A stretch of 64,000 nt of DNA from the NCBI GenBank assembly GCA_964344415.1, contig CAYFMS010000001.1, forward strand, positions 250,620 through 314,619. The letters are read 5' to 3'. The DNA comes from an uncultured Gammaproteobacteria bacterium. Its GTDB lineage: Bacteria > Patescibacteriota > Patescibacteriia > UBA9934. Shown piece after piece: positions 8,765 to 52,336 of the stretch (position 1 is the first letter of the stretch; each line of letters opens with the position of its first letter). The notes below the pieces were generated by a model that saw only the letters and a list, made by a program, of their open reading frames with translations, did not search any database and had not been told where the DNA came from. A program made the translations under genes and the position numbers.

Positions 8765-10864
8765 ATGGCACGAGAATATCCACTCGATAAGATTCGAAAT
8801 ATTGGAATTATTGCCCACATTGATGCGGGGAAGACAACGACGACAGAACGCGTTCTTTTCTACACAGGAAAGAAGCATAAGCTTGGAGAGGTTCATGAAG
8901 GTGAAGCGGAAATGGACTGGATGGAACAGGAGCAGGAGCGTGGAATCACGATTACATCTGCTGCAACAACATGTTTTTGGAAGGATCATCGAATTAATAT
9001 TATCGATACGCCAGGTCACGTTGACTTTACGGTAGAGGTAGAACGATCTCTTCGTGTTCTCGATGGTGGTGTGACCGTATTTGACGGTGTAGCTGGTGTT
9101 GAGCCTCAGTCGGAAACGGTTTGGCGACAAGCTGATAAATATAATGTTCCTCGAATTTGTTTCGTTAACAAGCTTGACCGAACAGGTGCAGATTTCATGA
9201 AAGATCTTGAATCGATTCGAAATCGTCTTACGAAGAAGGCGCACCCTGTTCAGCTTCCAATTGGTGCCGAGGATCAATTTGAGGGAATTATTGACCTTCT
9301 TAAGATGAAGGCATTCATGTACCGAGATGAGGAAGGAAGACAAATTGATGAAATTGAAATCCCAGATGAATATAAGGCGCAGGCTGAAGAATGGCGCGGG
9401 AAGCTCATCGAAGCGATCGCTGAAAATGATGAAGAATTGATGGATCAGTACATTTCTGGTGAAGAACTTGCTTATGATGATTTGATTCGGGTTCTTCGAA
9501 AGGCAACAATCGAGCTTGAAATTTTCCCTGTTCTTCTAGGAACGGCCCTTAAGAATAAAGGTGTACAGCTTATGCTTGATGCTGTTGTTGCACTTCTTCC
9601 ATCACCGCTTGATATTCCTGCGGTTGAAGGATTCCACCCAGATGATGAAGAGAATGTTATGAAGCGCGAAGCTTCAGATTCAGCACCATTTTCAGCACTA
9701 GCTTTCAAGATTGCTGCTGACCCATTCGTTGGAAAGCTCGCATTCTTCCGAGTATATTCTGGTGTTTTGAAGTCAGGATCATATGTCCTCAATACAACGA
9801 CTGGTAAAAAAGAACGTATTTCTCGTATTGTTCGACTTCATGCAAATTCTCGTGAAGAGGTGCAGGAAGTATATGCTGGTGAAATCGCAGCAGCGGTAGG
9901 ACTCAAAGAAACAACGACTGGTAATACACTTTGTGATCCAGATAATCCTGTTGTTCTGGAATCAATTACATTCCCAGAGCCTGTTATCTCTCTTGCTCTT
10001 GAGCCACTTACGAAAGCTGACCAAGAAAAGATGTCTCTTGCGCTTTCAAAACTTGCGGAAGAAGATCCTACATTCCGTGTACGAACGGATGAGGAAACAA
10101 TGCAGACAATCGTTTCAGGAATGGGAGAACTTCACCTTGAAATTATTGTTGACCGCATGAAGCGCGAATACAATGTTGAAGTAAATGTTGGTCGTCCGCA
10201 GGTAAGTTACCGCGAAACGATCCGAGGCAGCGCAGAAGCGGAAGGTAAATACGTAAAGCAGTCTGGTGGTCGTGGACAATATGGTCACTGTTGGCTACGA
10301 ATCGAACCAATCGTTCAGGAAGAAAATGAGGAAGAGGAACCAAAGAATTTCGAATTCTTTAGTGAAATCAAGGGTGGTGCTATTCCTAATGAATACATCC
10401 CAGCTGTTCAAAAGGGTGCACGAGAAGCAATGGATCGAGGTGTTGTAGCCGGATATCCGCTGATCAATGTACGAGCAACGGTTTATGATGGTTCTTACCA
10501 TGATGTTGACTCGAATGAAGCGGCATTTAAGATGGCTGGATCAATGGCATTCCAAGCAGCAGCGAAGCTTGCTAGCCCGGTACTTCTTGAGCCGGTGATG
10601 AAAGTTGAAGTTGTGACGCCAGAAGAATTCATGGGAACTGTTATCGGTGACTTGAATGCAAAGCGTGCGCAAATTCAGGAAATGGGTGACCGTGGTGATG
10701 TAAAAACGGTTCAGGCACTTGTTCCACTCGCTGAAATGTTCGGATATGCAACGCAGCTTCGATCAAATACGCAGGGACGTGCAAGTTACAGCATGGAATT
10801 CCACGAATATCAGGAAGTTCCAAATAATATTGCAGAAGCAATCAAAGAAAAGCGAAATGCATAA
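8765..10864 (+). CDS. fusA: Elongation factor G
   Basis: [20 protein letters not shown]...[10 protein letters not shown]-domain motifs, 699 aa. Confidence 0.95.
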
Positions 10865-10899: not shown

Positions 10900-10986
10900 C
10901 TTTTCTAAATTTATATTGGACTTCATACGCATTTTTTGTCCTTGACTCAATTTGCGACTTCGTTAAGATGCAGGAAAGAATGCAAT

Positions 10987-11337
10987 ATGAATGAACAAGG
11001 TTTACAGCGCCTAATTCAGGCCGCTAAAAGAATAGGGGGACCATTAATTGTGACAGATGCATCTGGTGATGAACCTGTTGTTATTGTGCCGCTACATGAA
11101 TATGAATCAATGCTCGGTACGGCGCCTGCTCCTGAAATTCCTGTAGAAACTGATGCGGTGAAAGAAGATGCTGGCTTTATAGAGCAGGGGGGTGAGATTC
11201 CAGAAATCAGTCAGGAAGTGTTTGAAGAATTGGGCCAAGTGACGGAAGAATCCATTCCTGTGCAGCCTGTAGTAAAAGCGCAGGAAGCTCCATCTATTCC
11301 TGGCGAAGAGCAATTTTATTTAGAACCGATTGAATAA
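10987..11337 (+). CDS. Hypothetical protein with Phd/YefM-antitoxin-like N-terminal segment and acidic tail
   Basis: AGGAAAG RBS then ATG 10987; GGPLIVTDASGDEPVVIVPLHEYESMLG resembles the YefM/Phd core; no cognate toxin nearby. Confidence 0.4.
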   Translation: MNEQGLQRLIQAAKRIGGPLIVTDASGDEPVVIVPLHEYESMLGTAPAPEIPVETDAVKEDAGFIEQGGEIPEISQEVFEELGQVTEESIPVQPVVKAQEAPSIPGEEQFYLEPIE

Positions 11338-11378
11338 AAAAATGAACCCCGCAGCGAGTACTGCGGGGTTTTGTCTTT
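11338..11378. terminator. Bidirectional terminator hairpin (copy 1 of duplicated hairpin)
   Basis: AAAAAATGAACCCCGCAGCGAGTACTGCGGGGTTTTGTCTTT; A-run and T-run on either side; near-identical to 12339..12376. Confidence 0.55.
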
Positions 11379-11425
11379 ATAAAGCGTCTCAGGCGGAGCC
11401 TGACATGGCTTCACGGAGCAAGTGC

Positions 11426-12145
11426 CTAGCTCTTGTACTCCCGGATGACGGCCGCGGAGCACAAGCGGAACGAGTCGCCGACGTAGTTACCGACGAGCTC
11501 CGCGTCGCCGCGGTGCCATACGGAGGGCGAGACCGACCGCGCGTTGCAGCTCGGCACGGAGAGGAGTAGGGCAGCGAGAATGGCATAGGGCACGTTGATC
11601 CCGTCCATCTGCTCGACCCACTTCTGGCTTTGCGATGCGTTGAAGATCACCGCGAAGTCTGCGAGCTTGTCGGCCTGCGTCCTCTGGACCCCGCACAGCA
11701 CGATACCGTGCTGGTGACCCCAGTTTGCACTGAAATCCACGGCCTGCACCTGAATGGTGTTCGGCCGGAACTCACGGGTACCCGGGATAAGCTCGATACG
11801 CTTGTCGTCGACCCCGCTCGCATAGGCCTCATTCCACTCGACGTAGCGGTCGCCCCAGGTCTCCTTCATGCGGGCGCAACCGTAGAGGAGCGTGGCCGGG
11901 ATGGATTCGCGGTAGACCACGACGACGAGGTCGAGGAGGTGGTTGCTCGGGCTCTCGGCCTCGAAGCCCGCGATGGTTCCGTCCTTGCGAGCACGCTCGA
12001 CGGCGGCATCCACATCGGCTGGATTAATGCCCGGCCAGGACTTGACCATTTCGACCTTGTCCGCGAGCGGCGTGAACCGTCCGTGGATGAGGTGGAAGGC
12101 CTGCTGAGAATTTACCCAGGCCGCTAGGGTAGCGATGGATTCCAT
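11426..12145 (-). CDS. Hypothetical protein A (GC-rich island; paralog of 42637..43407 and of the C-terminal part of 12408..13205)
   Basis: AAGAGG RBS then ATG (MESIATLAAW...); about 60% G+C; shared motifs HLIHgrFtPlAD and QH...W..VPyaIL with paralogs. Confidence 0.55.
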   Translation of the reverse strand: MESIATLAAWVNSQQAFHLIHGRFTPLADKVEMVKSWPGINPADVDAAVERARKDGTIAGFEAESPSNHLLDLVVVVYRESIPATLLYGCARMKETWGDRYVEWNEAYASGVDDKRIELIPGTREFRPNTIQVQAVDFSANWGHQHGIVLCGVQRTQADKLADFAVIFNASQSQKWVEQMDGINVPYAILAALLLSVPSCNARSVSPSVWHRGDAELVGNYVGDSFRLCSAAVIREYKS

Positions 12146-12338
12146 CGGACACCTCTTAGGAACGCCGTCAGGGTTGATTGTCTGGCACCATCCAGATCCA
12201 ATCAGTGGCCTATTGTTGATTACGGCTTCCTGGGGTTTTGGAGAAACCACAAAAAGCCGTATTCAACAGTGAAACTAGGCTAATAATTTAGTAAAGAACA
12301 AGACATGAATATACCGTAAATTAGCCATTTTGTCAATG

Positions 12339-12376
12339 AAAAAATGAACCCCGCAGCGAGTGCTGCGGGGTTTTGC
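12339..12376 (-). terminator. Terminator hairpin (copy 2, 37/38 nt identical to 11338..11378)
   Basis: AAAAAATGAACCCCGCAGCGAGTGCTGCGGGGTTTTG. Confidence 0.5.
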
Positions 12377-12407
12377 GATGTCATGGCATCACATCACGAT
12401 CCAAGCT

Positions 12408-13205
12408 CTACCCGATGGAGGGCACCGAGTAGTGCGAGTAGTCATTGTAACGCCGGCGAGCATTCAGGCGCGTCTCGCCATCGCTCGGGTAGCGGGACAC
12501 GCACGGAACAAATGACCGAGAATCGCCCCCCGACTCATAGCCGGCGCAGAACCACGCGCACCACTCGTCGTAGTCGATGACATGCACGCGGTCCGGCACG
12601 AGCCATGCGAGCACGAGACCTTCGTCTGCGAGGGACTTTGGGCCGCTCACCGACGTCACGGAGACGCGCATGCGGTGCTGCGATAGGTTAGGTATAATGA
12701 TCCACTCGACCACCGGCTTGTGGCTTTCATTGCCCACGAGCAGGCGAAGACGATCCACGGGCTTACCCCGGCAGGGCTGCACTCTAGAGAGGAGATGCTT
12801 CCCGCGCGAGTAGTTATCGTGGACGTGCTCGATTGCCGCAGCATGCGCCTCGAAGGTCTTGATGACTCCGTTACTTCCATCGCCAAAGCGAATACGGAAG
12901 CTGCGGTAGGCGTCACGACCCTCGGGCCACGCGGGAGCGGTCTTGGCGAGGCGTGCAAACACGTCCTCCTCGATACCCCAACCACCCAGCTCATTCTGAC
13001 GACGAAATGCAGCGAGCTGCTCCTCGACCGTCTGCTCGAACGGGTTCTTGTTGGCGAGCCAGGGGTTCTCCTTGCGCAGGAAGCGCTTGAATGCGTGCAG
13101 CCATATGCCGCCGTTGGGTCCCGCGAGCTTCGCGAGAAGGTCACTGATCGGTCCGGCCGCTTCAGCCAGAGCGATACTGTCGAGCATGGACTTCTCCATG
13201 GTCAA
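12408..13205 (-). CDS. Hypothetical protein B (GC-rich island)
   Basis: AGAGGAG RBS then ATG (MTMEKSML...); C-terminal WFCAGYESGGDSRSFVPCVSRYPSDG region alignable to the C-terminus of protein C. Confidence 0.6.
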   Translation of the reverse strand: MTMEKSMLDSIALAEAAGPISDLLAKLAGPNGGIWLHAFKRFLRKENPWLANKNPFEQTVEEQLAAFRRQNELGGWGIEEDVFARLAKTAPAWPEGRDAYRSFRIRFGDGSNGVIKTFEAHAAAIEHVHDNYSRGKHLLSRVQPCRGKPVDRLRLLVGNESHKPVVEWIIIPNLSQHRMRVSVTSVSGPKSLADEGLVLAWLVPDRVHVIDYDEWCAWFCAGYESGGDSRSFVPCVSRYPSDGETRLNARRRYNDYSHYSVPSIG

Positions 13206-13474
13206 CTCCTCTTATCAAGTGCCGCCGGTGCAGTGTTCCTGGAAGCCAGGGTTACACGTAACCATTTTGTTGAAAGCGGCGTCTTAATGCCTTGTTTAAA
13301 GCAGTAAAACACCACTTTCAACACTTGAAACTTGTCTATTTTTAGTAATGAACAAGCAGGGAATGTAGCATATTTAGACGATTTTGTCAATCATTTCACA
13401 TTAATGTTTTATGGTGCTCGGTAATGAAAAATATCATTATGAGATGCATGTAAAAAATCTTTATGGCTGGGGCT

Positions 13475-35934: not shown

Positions 35935-36599
<665 letters not shown>

Positions 36600-42582: not shown

Positions 42583-42616
42583 AAAAAAATGCCCCATATC
42601 GTGAGTGATATGGGGC
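42583..42616 (-). terminator. Terminator after gene C (hairpin GCCCCATATC-GTGAGT-GATATGGGGC then T-run on minus strand)
   Basis: Same architecture (AAAAAATG-CCCC...GGGG) as the two hairpins in the fusA-tuf island. Confidence 0.5.
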
Positions 42617-42636: not shown

Positions 42637-43407
42637 TTACTCTCTGAAGACGGGCACAGCGAGGGAGCCGTCGTCTTTGTCGTACCGATACGCTTCCAGA
42701 AAGATCACGCAGGTGTAGCTGTCAAGAACGATAAAGGGCACGCTCCGCCAGGATTTGTCGCGAGTCGTCTTGCACTCCAGACCCGGGATGAACCAGCCGA
42801 AGCGCTTCGTGTGGTCGGTTGCCTTCATCCGCTGTGGGTGTTGGGCAGCAACATACATGAGCGCAAGGCCGGGGGAGGTCTTGGGATCACGCACCTCGAC
42901 AGGCTTCTTGCCTACATTCGTGTCGAGCTTGACGCATCGCCAGCGCAGCGTCCACGGCTTGAAGTCCTCAGATCCCTCAAGTAGCCGGAGATTGTTGGGA
43001 CTCGATATCATGCCACCCCACCGCTTGCTGGCACTCTGGCCGTCTTTGGTCCAGTCCCAGGCGAAATCGAAGCTCTCCTGCAAATCACTGAGATTTACTT
43101 CGAGCACCACGACCGTTTCCAGATCTTTGGGATCGAAGTCGGGAGCCTTCTCGGGCCCGTCCCAGGTGAAGCGGGTGAAGTCGATGTCCTTCTCGGTGCA
43201 ACGTACCTTGAAGGCCGACATTACATCCGCAGCGGGATTGAAGACCTCGTGGATGAGGTGACACTTCGGGTGACCCTTGAGTTCGCCGACCCACCAATTC
43301 ATCAAATCATCGTCACTGAGGAGCTTCTTGATCAACTTGACCGTGCCGCCGAAGCGGAAGAACCGGTTGATGAACTCCACTGCCTGGTTGAGGAAAATGT
43401 CGGGCAT
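42637..43407 (-). CDS. Hypothetical protein C (GC-rich; paralog of A and of B's C-terminus)
   Basis: AGAGG RBS then ATG (MPDIFLNQ...); shared motifs HLIHEVFNPAAD, QHPQRM...WFIPG...SWRSVPFIVLDS. Confidence 0.55.
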   Translation of the reverse strand: MPDIFLNQAVEFINRFFRFGGTVKLIKKLLSDDDLMNWWVGELKGHPKCHLIHEVFNPAADVMSAFKVRCTEKDIDFTRFTWDGPEKAPDFDPKDLETVVVLEVNLSDLQESFDFAWDWTKDGQSASKRWGGMISSPNNLRLLEGSEDFKPWTLRWRCVKLDTNVGKKPVEVRDPKTSPGLALMYVAAQHPQRMKATDHTKRFGWFIPGLECKTTRDKSWRSVPFIVLDSYTCVIFLEAYRYDKDDGSLAVPVFRE

Positions 43408-43583
43408 TTTGTACCTCTGAAGCCATCTCCGACTAGCCTGCAAGAACACCCAATGTGCCTAGCAAACCTGCCGATATATGTATTGAGAATGGCATCCTCG
43501 AGCCACAAATGTAGCTAGAAAATGCCGTTCTCAATGAAAAGAGTGGTTGTTTAGTGTAGAGTATTTTTCACTCCTTGTCAATC

Positions 43584-52236: not shown

Positions 52237-52336
52237 TGGGCCGAGGAGGGCTCGAACCTCCAACTTCCGTCTATTACATCTCAGGCATAGACCTGAAATG
52301 TGGCAGACGGTGTTCTCACCATTGAACTATCGACCC
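52237..52336 (-). tRNA. Aberrant 100-nt tRNA-like gene: intact acceptor, D and T arms but 34 nt between the anticodon-stem halves (possible small intron or pseudogene)
   Basis: Minus strand GGGTCGA-TA-GTTC-AATGGTGA-GAAC-A-CCGTC-[TGCCACATTTCAGGTCTATGCCTGAGATGTAATA]-GACGG-AAGTT-GGAGG-TTCGAGC-CCTCC-TCGGCCC-A; no CCA encoded. Confidence 0.5.

What the first reader, a model, noticed from the sequence alone, without database searches (positions are those of the whole stretch)
10936..13330. GC-rich two-gene island inserted inside the str operon between fusA and tuf, with a duplicated terminator module; a third paralog sits in a second GC island at 42637..43407
rpsL-rpsG-fusA-tuf is normally contiguous. 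Here about 2.6 kb intervene. They contain a Phd/YefM-like small ORF and two minus-strand genes, A (11426..12145) and B (12408..13205). By eye these are about 60% G+C against a much AT-richer background, so the plus-strand six-frame ORFs are spurious. Each gene has an AGGAG-type RBS. Each is followed on the minus strand by a near-identical hairpin AAAAAATGAACCCCGCAGCGAGT(A/G)CTGCGGGGTTTTG (11338..11378 and 12339..12376). This points to duplication of a gene-plus-terminator cassette. A third gene of the same family, C (42637..43407), also sits on the minus strand in another GC-rich patch and is followed by an analogous hairpin (42583..42616). The shared motifs are HLIH..F.P.AD in the N-terminal part and QH...(F/W)..G......SW.SVPf.vLDS at the C-terminus. 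No known domain is recognisable. An imperfect 14-bp inverted repeat ATTGAGAATGGCAT..(26 nt)..ATGCCGTTCTCAAT (43482..43535) lies upstream of C. This looks like a horizontally acquired multi-copy gene family of unknown function, possibly a mobile cassette or defence-related, wedged into one of the most conserved operons.
Basis: partly seen in the sequence, partly recalled or inferred. Interest (0 to 1): 0.75.

Follow-up and report, generated by a model that had tools for sequence, protein, structure and literature searches.

The report
Solo hypervariable-protein genes beside tuf
The GC-rich genes wedged between fusA and tuf, and their third relative 30 kb away, belong to a family of lectin-like binding proteins whose tips are rewritten by a reverse transcriptase in related ultra-small bacteria. 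Here they sit alone, without that rewriting machinery nearby.

Summary
A (11426-12145), B (12408-13199) and C (42637-43407), all on the minus strand, have GC3 of 0.84, 0.75 and 0.76. Forty-four host ORFs average 0.36 (z = 8-10). A and B end in a 41-nt terminator module that is 95% identical.

The interpretation needs replacing. A, B and C are distant paralogs (profile-profile probability 97.7-99.7%) of a Patescibacteria/Uhrbacteria family of diversity-generating retroelement (DGR) variable proteins. In 14 related loci the last ~130 nt of the gene (the variable region, VR) is repeated 350-560 nt downstream as a template repeat (TR). There are 233 mismatches at TR adenines and 4 elsewhere. Avd and a reverse transcriptase gene follow. 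The modelled fold resembles C-type lectins.

The window has no TR, Avd or RT, and the A and C variable regions are identical across assemblies. The copies are therefore either retired or remote targets; I lean towards retired.

Two extras look undescribed:
- Every family member carries a conserved promoter and a covarying 5'-leader hairpin.
- The high GC3 is confined to the target coding sequence and the TR, inside otherwise host-like cassettes. It is weaker in solo copies.

This is a new member of a known kind.

The parts
11333..11378 (-). 3' module of gene A. An 11-bp GC-rich stem with a 4-nt loop (11345-11370), followed by a T-run. It is an intrinsic terminator that faces both ways, between the convergent Phd-like ORF and A.
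   Evidence: It is 95% identical over 41 nt to the module after B.
11426..12145 (-). Gene A (239 aa), a DGR variable-protein paralog of the A family. Relative to its closest homologs it has an in-frame loss of about 35 N-terminal residues.
   Evidence: 36 homologs at 44-76% identity, all Patescibacteria hypotheticals. The homolog in L001 has a canonical VR/TR pair plus RT. GC3 is 0.84.
11437..11560 (-). Variable-region (VR) equivalent of gene A, its last ~41 codons.
   Evidence: It aligns to the TR of L001 over 125 nt at 68% identity, and 21 of 40 mismatches fall at TR adenines. The hypervariable alignment columns fall here, and NNC codons sit at the positions of TR AAC codons.
12210..12272 (-). 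Conserved 5'-leader hairpin of gene A.
   Evidence: Covariance model R1 scores 64.7 bits (E = 7.5e-12) on the gene strand and 27.8 bits on the other strand.
12308..12336 (-). Promoter of gene A: TTGACA, 17 nt, TATATT. The spacer is conserved in other genomes.
12335..12376 (-). 3' module of gene B. An 11-bp stem with a 4-nt loop (12347-12372) and a T-run, abutting the -35 box of A.
12408..13199 (-). Gene B (263 aa), a DGR variable-protein paralog of the B family. The model shows an N-terminal helical bundle followed by a C-type-lectin-like domain.
12408..12535 (-). VR equivalent of gene B. The limits are inferred. It lacks 5 codons at its 5' edge relative to the family.
   Evidence: 12408-12509 aligns to the TR of L010. 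Alignment A4 shows alternating hypervariable columns and the LNVPE deletion.
13264..13327 (-). Conserved 5'-leader hairpin of gene B.
   Evidence: R1 scores 62.0 bits, E = 3.3e-11.
13362..13390 (-). Promoter of gene B: TTGACA, 17 nt, TACATT, with an extended -10 TG.
   Evidence: repeat D1.
42591..42616 (-). Terminator hairpin of gene C: 10-bp stem, 6-nt loop, T-run.
42637..43407 (-). Gene C (256 aa), a DGR variable-protein paralog of the C family. The VR equivalent lies at roughly 42643-42772 (inferred).
   Evidence: 23 homologs. The L044 homolog has a VR/TR pair with 22 adenine-only mismatches plus bAvd and RVT_1. hhalign to the B family gives probability 99.7%.
43477..43540 (-).
   Evidence: R1 scores 55.8 bits, E = 9.6e-10.
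43553..43581 (-). Promoter of gene C: TTGACA, 17 nt, TACACT.
10987..11337 (+). Neighbouring Phd/YefM-like ORF. It is not part of the GC-rich cassettes. It is a host-composition gene conserved next to tuf.
   Evidence: GC3 is 0.30. A homolog ending in the same EEQFYLEPIE motif lies between fusA and tuf in L019. The Pfam match is below threshold.

Best explanation
A, B and C are three anciently diverged paralogs of one Patescibacteria (mainly Uhrbacteria) superfamily of diversity-generating-retroelement (DGR) variable proteins. Each is about 260 aa: a short, swappable N-terminal helical module, then a C-type-lectin-like domain whose last ~45 residues form the variable region (VR).

In complete cassettes of this superfamily the order is promoter, structured leader, target CDS with its VR, a ~350-560 nt spacer, the template repeat (TR), avd on the opposite strand, and the RT gene. 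In the established DGR mechanism, TR RNA is reverse-transcribed with adenine-specific errors and the cDNA overwrites the VR. This re-randomises the ligand-binding surface.

In this window each gene is its own transcription unit: a consensus promoter, a ~150-nt leader with a conserved hairpin, an RBS, the CDS and an intrinsic terminator. No TR, Avd or RT lies within the 64 kb.

Shown: family membership, the DGR nature of the family, the cassette anatomy, and the absence of the machinery in the window.

Inferred: these three copies are no longer being diversified. They would be retired targets that now act as fixed-specificity binding proteins. I put this at about 55%, against 45% for their being remote targets of DGRs elsewhere in the 768-kb genome. 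The stated confidence refers to the family identification and anatomy.
For: Superfamily: hhalign A~B 97.7% (E = 2.5e-12), C~B 99.7%, A~C 99.6%, all full length.

DGR nature of the relatives:
- VR/TR pairs occur in 13 loci of the A and B families and in L044 of the C family. Identity is 80-93% over 118-139 nt. There are 233 mismatches at TR adenines and 4 elsewhere.
- An RT gene (Pfam RVT_1) lies on the target's strand in 16 of 37 B-family loci, about 0.9-1 kb downstream in most and upstream in L021, and also in L001, L044 and L051.
- bAvd lies between TR and RT in 16 loci.

Variable columns: hypervariable alignment columns alternate with conserved scaffold columns exactly in the last ~45 residues.

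Shared anatomy: the leader hairpin is found once upstream of each of A, B and C and in about 37 related loci.

No machinery in the window: tblastn with three RTs and one Avd finds nothing at E <= 1. blastn finds no second copy of any 3' end.

Leaning towards retired:
- RT-linked relatives carry CTYGG repeats and a long hairpin right after the stop codon. A, B and C have only plain terminators there.
- The VR of C is identical in two assemblies.
- The antisense ORF covering the VR of A is identical on 5 contigs, including a second sequencing run.
- B and C have GC3 values typical of solo copies.
- B lacks 5 codons at its VR edge.
- The L019 copy at the same locus is a pseudogene.

Literature: DGRs are abundant in CPR bacteria (PMC8144416). 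CPR DGRs mostly have a single target, and truly remote targets were seen only in another lineage (PMC5758913).
Against: - No cognate TR was seen for any of the three window genes, so membership as a current DGR target is not demonstrated here.
- The rest of the 768-kb source contig could not be searched.
- All three ORFs are intact, with intact scaffold residues, promoters and leaders. This fits functioning genes, whether or not they are being diversified.
- The near-identity of the A and B 3' hairpins could reflect recognition by a shared DGR machinery, which would favour the active-remote reading.
- Identical VRs in consensus assemblies do not exclude low-frequency variants.
Confidence: 0.85

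Rival explanations
1. The family is the same, but the three genes are active remote targets. One or more DGRs elsewhere in the 768-kb genome would carry TRs cognate to the A, B and C VRs. The GC-rich hairpins after the stop codons would double as the cruciform element that guides retrohoming.
For: - The ORFs, scaffold residues, leaders and promoters are intact.
- The VR of A keeps NNC codons where TRs have AAC, and its GC3 of 0.84 equals that of RT-linked copies.
- The A and B 3' hairpins are 36/37 identical although the genes are unrelated at DNA level.
- In another genome, an A-type and a B-type gene also share their 3' flank, 77% over 43 nt.
- A GC-rich inverted repeat after the VR is required for efficient homing in phage BPP-1 (PMC3240598).
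Against: - Three different TRs would be needed, because the three VRs are not alignable to one another.
- The family-typical 3' element is missing.
- The hairpins lie 32-48 nt after the stop codon and have loop ACTC, not the GRNA loop placed directly after the VR in BPP-1 (PMC3240598).
- No VR variation is seen between assemblies.
- In the same MAG as L017, the solo copy L022 differs from the L017 TR at 7 non-adenine positions, so solo copies are not automatically served by the resident DGR.
- The hairpin sequence occurs as an ordinary terminator in unrelated high-GC organisms.
Confidence: 0.4
2. A recently acquired horizontal island or mobile gene-plus-terminator cassette, possibly a defence system, was inserted into the str operon.
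For: - The compositional contrast is very strong.
- The two units are arranged in tandem with repeated flanks.
- One A-family homolog sits beside Fic, helicase and methyltransferase genes.
- Contigs from other sequencing runs break inside A and B.
Against: - The same anomaly is present in relatives only 45-65% identical, across hosts of 39-69% GC. It is confined to the CDS and the TR, while the adjoining leader, avd and RT are host-like. This is a maintained property of the family, not a trace of recent transfer.
- There is no integrase, transposase or flanking direct repeat.
- There are no PADLOC or PHROG hits.
- A distant relative has a B-family gene at the same place beside tuf.
Confidence: 0.05
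3. The Phd/YefM-like ORF and gene A form a type II toxin-antitoxin pair.
For: There are weak Phd matches: Pfam E = 0.005 and NCBIfam E = 0.045. The ORF is adjacent to A.
Against: - The two genes are convergent, not co-transcribed, and a terminator lies between them.
- The ORF has host composition.
- Its homolog in L019 sits next to a B-family pseudogene and tuf, with no toxin.
- A is homologous to DGR variable proteins, not to any toxin family.
Confidence: 0.02

Closest known systems
DGR variable proteins with a C-type-lectin fold (Bordetella phage Mtd, Treponema TvpA, Thermus TaqVP), and the CPR/Patescibacteria DGR clade described by Paul et al. 2017, Wu et al. 2018 (PMC5758913) and Roux et al. 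2021 (PMC8144416, clade 2)
   Same: - A C-terminal VR of about 130 nt paired with a TR that differs only at adenines.
- Avd and an RVT_1 reverse transcriptase in the cassette.
- AAC-rich TR codons.
- A lectin-like fold with the variable residues in the last ~45 aa.
- A GC-rich inverted repeat after the VR.
   Different: - There is no sequence-level match to any Pfam, NCBIfam or PDB family.
- The window copies lack TR, Avd and RT.
- In this lineage avd is on the opposite strand, and the TR lies 350-560 nt after the target.
- The whole target CDS, not just the VR, is compositionally aberrant.
- A conserved promoter and a covarying leader hairpin precede every target.
Non-adjacent or remote DGR targets, for example Treponema denticola (seven non-adjacent targets) and Legionella (PMC5758913)
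   Same: Paralogous target genes are scattered in the genome away from the RT. Each has its own 3' hairpin.
   Different: Known remote targets share one VR type that matches one TR. Here the three VRs are mutually unalignable, so three TRs would be required. Remote targets have not been reported for CPR DGRs.
BPP-1 IMH plus hairpin/cruciform target-recognition element (Guo et al. 2011, PMC3240598)
   Same: A GC-rich stem with a 4-nt loop downstream of the VR. That paper itself notes the terminator-like character.
   Different: - The position is 32-48 nt after the stop codon, rather than within about 24 nt of the VR.
- The loop is ACTC rather than GRNA.
- A T-run follows, so it is a plain intrinsic terminator.
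- RT-linked relatives use a different and much longer element.

Membership tests
DGR variable (target) protein gene | The 3'-terminal VR is matched by a TR that differs essentially only at TR adenines. | tested here: not met
For the families the feature is met in 14 related loci, with 233 adenine mismatches against 4 others.
DGR variable (target) protein gene | A DGR-type reverse transcriptase, usually with Avd, is in the same cassette or genome. | tested here: not met
   tblastn with three family RTs and one Avd finds nothing in the window at E <= 1. Both are present next to homologs in 16-19 related loci. The source genome outside the window could not be searched.
DGR variable (target) protein gene | Homology to proteins that are demonstrably DGR targets. 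| tested here: met
   phmmer hits run from E = 1e-95 to 1e-107 to family members. Members of each of the three families carry VR/TR/RT. hhalign links the three families.
DGR variable (target) protein gene | A C-type-lectin (or Ig) fold presents the variable residues. | tested here: inconclusive
DGR variable (target) protein gene | An IMH and a GC-rich inverted repeat lie immediately 3' of the VR. | tested here: inconclusive
   GC-rich hairpins exist 32-48 nt after the stop codons. They are ordinary terminators and differ from the CTYGG-repeat plus long hairpin of RT-linked relatives. The IMH cannot be defined without a TR.
DGR variable (target) protein gene | Ongoing diversification, seen as VR polymorphism within or between populations. 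| tested here: not met
   The VR of C is identical in two assemblies. The ORF antisense to the VR of A is identical on 5 contigs from at least 2 runs, and its 90% cluster has a single member. Only consensus sequences were available, not reads.
Type II toxin-antitoxin (Phd/YefM with toxin) | An antitoxin domain above threshold, co-transcribed with a toxin gene. | tested here: not met
   The Pfam score is 17.1 bits against a cutoff of 29.8. The ORF is convergent with A across a terminator. It is conserved beside tuf without a toxin in L019.
Horizontally acquired genomic island or mobile cassette | Mobility genes or flanking repeats, and composition explained by a donor. | tested here: not met
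   There is no integrase or transposase ORF and no flanking direct repeats. The anomaly is family-wide, limited to the CDS, and independent of host GC.
Known RNA family (Rfam) for the leader or terminator | A match at the gathering score. | tested here: not met
   No Rfam hit at gathering score falls in these regions. Only chance-level hits appear in E-value mode.

The most novel reading that the evidence does not exclude
The extreme GC3 and third-position adenine depletion of the whole target coding sequence is maintained by linkage to an active DGR and decays once a copy is orphaned. The maintaining force could be off-target adenine mutagenesis that reaches beyond the VR, or selection to shield the scaffold from it. 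Composition would then report DGR activity. Separately, the covarying leader hairpin with its invariant promoter would be a dedicated regulatory RNA that co-controls all DGR targets of a cell. Neither feature appears in the DGR literature I could search.
Probability: 0.3. Interest if true: 0.7.

Novelty: new member of a known kind. Interest (0 to 1): 0.45.

Why it matters
- Annotation. The finding turns three "hypothetical, possibly foreign" genes into solo paralogs of DGR hypervariable binding proteins. DGRs are the main known accelerated-evolution system of CPR bacteria. Such proteins are thought to mediate attachment to hosts or ligands.
- A practical artefact. Public gene callers annotate spurious antisense ORFs over A and B, so these proteins are missing from protein databases.
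- A family-level regulatory leader. If the leader RNA is regulatory, it gives a handle on when CPR cells express their variable proteins.
- A composition mosaic. GC3 is about 0.86 in the target CDS and about 0.47 in the RT gene 1 kb away. Neither horizontal transfer nor the textbook DGR mechanism explains this. If the mosaic tracks DGR activity, it offers a sequence-only test for live versus retired targets. It would also hint that DGR mutagenesis, or the defence against it, reaches beyond the VR.

Tried and rejected
- Domain libraries. Pfam, NCBIfam, PHROGs and PADLOC on A, B, C and the Phd-like ORF gave nothing above threshold. The only hits were DUF6236 (E = 7e-4) and Phd (E = 0.005), both below their cutoffs.
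- Rfam. Nothing for the leaders or terminators.
- TR and machinery in the window. blastn of the three 3' ends and of 14 family TRs, and tblastn of RTs and Avd, found none.
- More hairpin copies. The scan of metagenome contigs returned 4 unrelated terminators from high-GC organisms. The source genome is in neither that collection nor genome contigs.
- First search for related loci attempt. The 81-sequence alignment failed for lack of a conserved stretch. A 12-sequence alignment worked.
- Structure libraries. Foldseek against the PDB gave no significant hit, and afdb50 was not available.
- Paul et al. 2017. The paper could not be read.
- Literature on DGR target composition. Two full-text searches found nothing relevant.
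- Toxin-antitoxin and mobile-island readings. Both were considered and rejected; see the rival explanations.
- Adenine-only depletion as the cause of high GC3. Third-position T is also depleted, although less than A.
- L022 as a remote target of the L017 DGR in the same MAG. Rejected, because 7 mismatches are at non-adenine positions.
Full report
**1. Observation**

The window looks like a Patescibacteria (CPR) chromosome of about 43% GC. The order is murA, an M50 peptidase, rpsL, rpsG and fusA (ends 10864), then a 2.7-kb gap, then tuf (13561) and rpsJ.

The gap holds a plus-strand Phd-like ORF (10987-11337) and two minus-strand genes:
- A, 11426-12145.
- B, 12408-13199.

A third gene, C (42637-43407, minus strand), lies between relA/spoT and topA.

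| Gene set | GC | GC3 | GC3 z-score |
|---|---|---|---|
| A | 0.632 | 0.838 | 9.9 |
| B | 0.617 | 0.754 | 8.1 |
| C | 0.568 | 0.759 | 8.2 |
| 44 other ORFs of the window | not computed | 0.357 (sd 0.049) | reference set |

First and second codon positions are host-like, so the anomaly is synonymous.

The hairpin modules after A and B are 95% identical over 41 nt. There are only two copies in the window. They score as intrinsic terminators on the gene strand, as does the hairpin after C.

Each gene has a near-consensus sigma-70 promoter (TTGACA, 17 nt, TAnAnT) about 150 nt upstream of its start codon. Each is therefore an independent transcription unit.

- B starts at ATG 13199.
- A starts at ATG 12145. 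The upstream extension of the ORF is leader RNA.

**2. What the genes are**

No curated library recognises them. Homology searches found only hypothetical proteins of about 260-280 aa from Uhrbacteria and other Patescibacteria metagenomes:
- 36 hits for A.
- At least 121 hits for B.
- 23 hits for C.

A profile search over 1.8 billion cluster representatives finds about 340 clusters.

Pairwise, A, B and C are barely similar. Profile-profile alignment shows full-length homology: A~B 97.7%, C~B 99.7%, A~C 99.6%. The "third paralog" claim therefore holds at superfamily level. A and B are not a recent duplicate.

Genomic context gave the decisive lead. In locus L001 the A homolog is followed by an RVT_1 gene. 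The last 125 nt of the gene recur 681 nt downstream at 90% identity, and all 13 mismatches are adenines in the downstream copy. This is the signature of a DGR variable region (VR) and template repeat (TR).

I then fetched 37 B-family loci from species-representative genomes:
- 16 have an RT gene on the target's strand, 45-67% identical to the L001 RT. It lies about 0.9-1 kb downstream in most and upstream in L021.
- 12 show VR/TR pairs.
- For the C family, L044 has a VR/TR pair with 22 adenine-only mismatches, plus bAvd (PF22296) and RVT_1.

Over the 14 loci, 233 mismatches fall at TR adenines and 4 elsewhere.

Avd homologs lie on the opposite strand between TR and RT in 16 loci.

In the protein alignments, hypervariable columns alternate with conserved scaffold columns in exactly the last ~45 residues.

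Published surveys report that DGRs are abundant in CPR bacteria and that most CPR targets lack recognisable domains (PMC8144416, PMC5758913).

**3. State of the three window copies**

The window contains no RT, no Avd and no TR. The source is a 768,188-bp contig (ENA ERZ930061). I could not search the rest of it. It is absent from both contig collections, and the hairpin scan returned only unrelated terminators.

Evidence that the copies are retired:
- RT-linked relatives, and several solo ones, carry a characteristic element right after the stop codon. It consists of repeated CTYGG pentamers leading into a long interrupted hairpin. A, B and C have only plain terminators there.
- The three VRs are not alignable to one another, so three separate TRs would be needed.
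- B lacks five codons at the VR edge, and A lacks one codon inside the VR and about 35 N-terminal residues.
- The VR of C is identical in two assemblies. The antisense ORF spanning the VR of A is identical on five contigs from at least two sequencing runs, and no variants at or above 90% identity exist in the database.
- In L019 the copy at the homologous site has an in-frame TGA where the family has a conserved Trp, and it has no detectable leader.

Evidence that they are still active:
- All three ORFs, scaffold residues, promoters and leaders are intact.
- The VR of A keeps NNC codons at the expected variable positions.
- The A and B hairpins are nearly identical although the genes are not. 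This recalls the hairpin/cruciform requirement shown for phage BPP-1 (PMC3240598). Targets in one other genome also share 3'-flank similarity.

I lean towards retired at about 55:45. Only a scan of the full genome or read-level variant analysis can settle it.

**4. The str-operon location**

L019 has EF-G 71% and EF-Tu 76% identical to the window's proteins. Its fusA-tuf gap is 8 kb. The gap contains an ABC transporter, a kinase-like gene, an O-antigen-ligase-like gene and an AAA ATPase. These are followed by a homolog of the Phd-like ORF with the same C-terminal EEQFYLEPIE, then a B-family pseudogene, then tuf.

Three conclusions follow:
- fusA and tuf are not contiguous in this lineage.
- The Phd-like ORF is a resident gene of host composition, not an antitoxin partner of A.
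- A B-family gene beside tuf is shared by distant genomes, although in the opposite orientation.

Another B homolog, with its RT, follows rpoC directly. Wu et al. had noted ribosomal protein genes inside some CPR DGR cassettes (PMC5758913).

No mobility genes or flanking repeats bound the island.

**5. A conserved leader**

The upstream regions of A, B and C, and of homologs from all three families in other genomes, share four features:
- A promoter that includes its spacer: TTGACAAAATGGCTAATTTAyGsTATATT.
- A yTGTTCATT box.
- A ~60-nt hairpin with base GTTGAR...YTCAAC.
- A second, variable stem before the RBS.

On 20 sequences the hairpin has 22 pairs, and 12 of them show compensatory changes. 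Standard pairs form in 94% of cells, against 83% in shuffles (0 of 500 shuffles reach the observed value) and 33-46% when the partner columns are slid.

Covariance model R1 hits exactly once upstream of each target: three times in the window and in about 37 loci. It always scores higher on the sense strand, for example 64.7 against 27.8 bits. This fits an RNA element.

No Rfam family matches. Its function is unknown. A shared regulatory input to all target genes is the simplest inference.

**6. The composition problem**

The anomaly is a property of the family, not of this genome. Mean GC across ten cassettes forms a mosaic:

| Segment | Mean GC |
|---|---|
| Leader | 0.41 |
| Target CDS | 0.65 |
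| VR | 0.68 |
| Spacer | 0.51 |
| TR | 0.59 |
| avd | 0.44 |
| RT | 0.44 |

- In 13 cassettes target GC3 is 0.80-0.94, mean 0.87. The RT gene 1 kb away has GC3 of 0.29-0.71, mean 0.47, and tracks the host.
- Third-position A is 1-9% and third-position T is 5-20% in target cores. Host genes have about 30% and 38%.
- Members are only 45-65% identical, so synonymous sites are saturated and the bias must be actively maintained. Recent horizontal transfer cannot produce such a fine mosaic.
- Core GC3 is higher in 18 RT/TR-linked copies (mean 0.856) than in 18 solo copies with at least 3 kb of downstream sequence (mean 0.761). One-sided Mann-Whitney p = 0.008, with equal flanking GC. In linked copies it does not correlate with host GC (rho = 0.07).
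- This test is not phylogenetically corrected, and "solo" is defined only from the 3-10 kb of flanking sequence fetched on either side.
- The result suggests, but does not prove, that the bias depends on linkage to the DGR. By this measure A resembles linked copies, while B and C resemble solo ones.
- Adenine mutagenesis alone does not explain the loss of T.
- I found no mention of this in the searchable literature.

**7. Verdict**

The finding is real and the anatomy was well observed, but the interpretation changes. These are solo paralogs of a CPR-specific family of DGR variable proteins. They are not a foreign island, a defence cassette or a toxin-antitoxin module.

As a kind of system this is known, so I classify it as a new member of a known kind. 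Moderate interest comes from three points:
- The orphan status of three divergent paralogs.
- The conserved leader RNA.
- The unexplained composition mosaic, limited to the CDS and the TR.

Noticed in passing
window 12210-12272, 13264-13327, 43477-43540 (all minus strand); about 37 related loci: A ~60-nt hairpin in the 5' leader of every target gene of the superfamily. It has 22 pairs, 12 with compensatory changes, and is preceded by a promoter whose spacer is also conserved. No Rfam family matches. It is a candidate cis-regulatory RNA specific to DGR targets.
   Followed up: yes
L001, L006, L008-L011, L017, L023, L026, L028, L032, L037, L044 (cassettes); window A, B, C: Composition mosaic inside DGR cassettes. 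The target CDS has GC3 of about 0.87 and the TR is GC-rich, while the leader, spacer, avd and RT are host-like. Core GC3 is lower in solo copies than in RT-linked copies (0.76 against 0.86, p = 0.008, not corrected for phylogeny).
   Followed up: partly
about 110 nt after the stop codon in L001, L005, L006, L008-L012, L014, L017, L018, L020, L022, L025, L026, L028, L032, L035, L037, L042, L044, L046: Repeated CTYGG pentamers lead into a long interrupted hairpin (for example GGGGAATCTTGGTCTTCTGACCTTGGTTCCCC). A further motif follows in some loci (GAAGCGnACTCGCCGCATCC). This is probably the lineage's target-recognition or spacer element. It is absent after window A, B and C.
   Followed up: partly
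L019 2857-11025: A distant relative has an 8-kb fusA-tuf gap. It ends with a homolog of the Phd-like ORF (9209-9592) and a B-family gene carrying an in-frame TGA at a conserved Trp (9713-10081 and 10193-10669). That gene is on the same strand as tuf, which is the opposite orientation to the window.
   Followed up: partly
L051 4537-7302: A B-family target and its RT lie immediately after rpoC. This is another case of a CPR DGR embedded in the transcription/translation gene cluster.
   Followed up: no
N-terminal ~50 aa of A, B and C family proteins (alignments A1, A2, A4): The N-terminal helical modules are mosaic across the three families. For example, 'AAEFFxRFFRFGG..LLSDDDLMxWW' occurs in window C, in P0013 (A family) and in P0053, P0056 and P0059 (B family). 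'MESIATLAA' occurs in window A, P0002, and in similar form (MVSIATLAS) in the B-type gene of L028. This suggests domain shuffling.
   Followed up: no
window 11342-11569, 11714-12127, 12843-13307 (plus strand): Public assemblies of this genome annotate these spurious antisense ORFs (P0181-P0183) instead of genes A and B. The real A and B proteins are therefore absent from the protein collection.
   Followed up: yes
window ~11634 and ~12883: Contigs assembled from two other sequencing runs of the same project (ERZ930070, ERZ930068) end inside gene A and gene B respectively. The cause could be strain heterogeneity or a coverage drop in the GC-rich segment.
   Followed up: no
window 35987-36576 (plus strand): An Rfam group I intron hit (36392-36576, 53 bits, just above the gathering score) overlaps the 3' end of an ORF with a strong PD-(D/E)XK endonuclease domain (PF11645, E = 2e-48). 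This is probably an intron-encoded homing endonuclease. The host gene was not identified.
   Followed up: partly
window 52237-52336 (minus strand): Rfam calls a 100-nt tRNA here (52 bits) that ARAGORN does not report. It may be a tRNA with an insertion or intron.
   Followed up: no
window 10987-11337 (plus strand): The Phd-like ORF has a weak antitoxin-like N-terminus and an acidic tail ending in EEQFYLEPIE, which is conserved in L019. It appears to be a lineage-specific resident gene upstream of tuf, of unknown function.
   Followed up: partly
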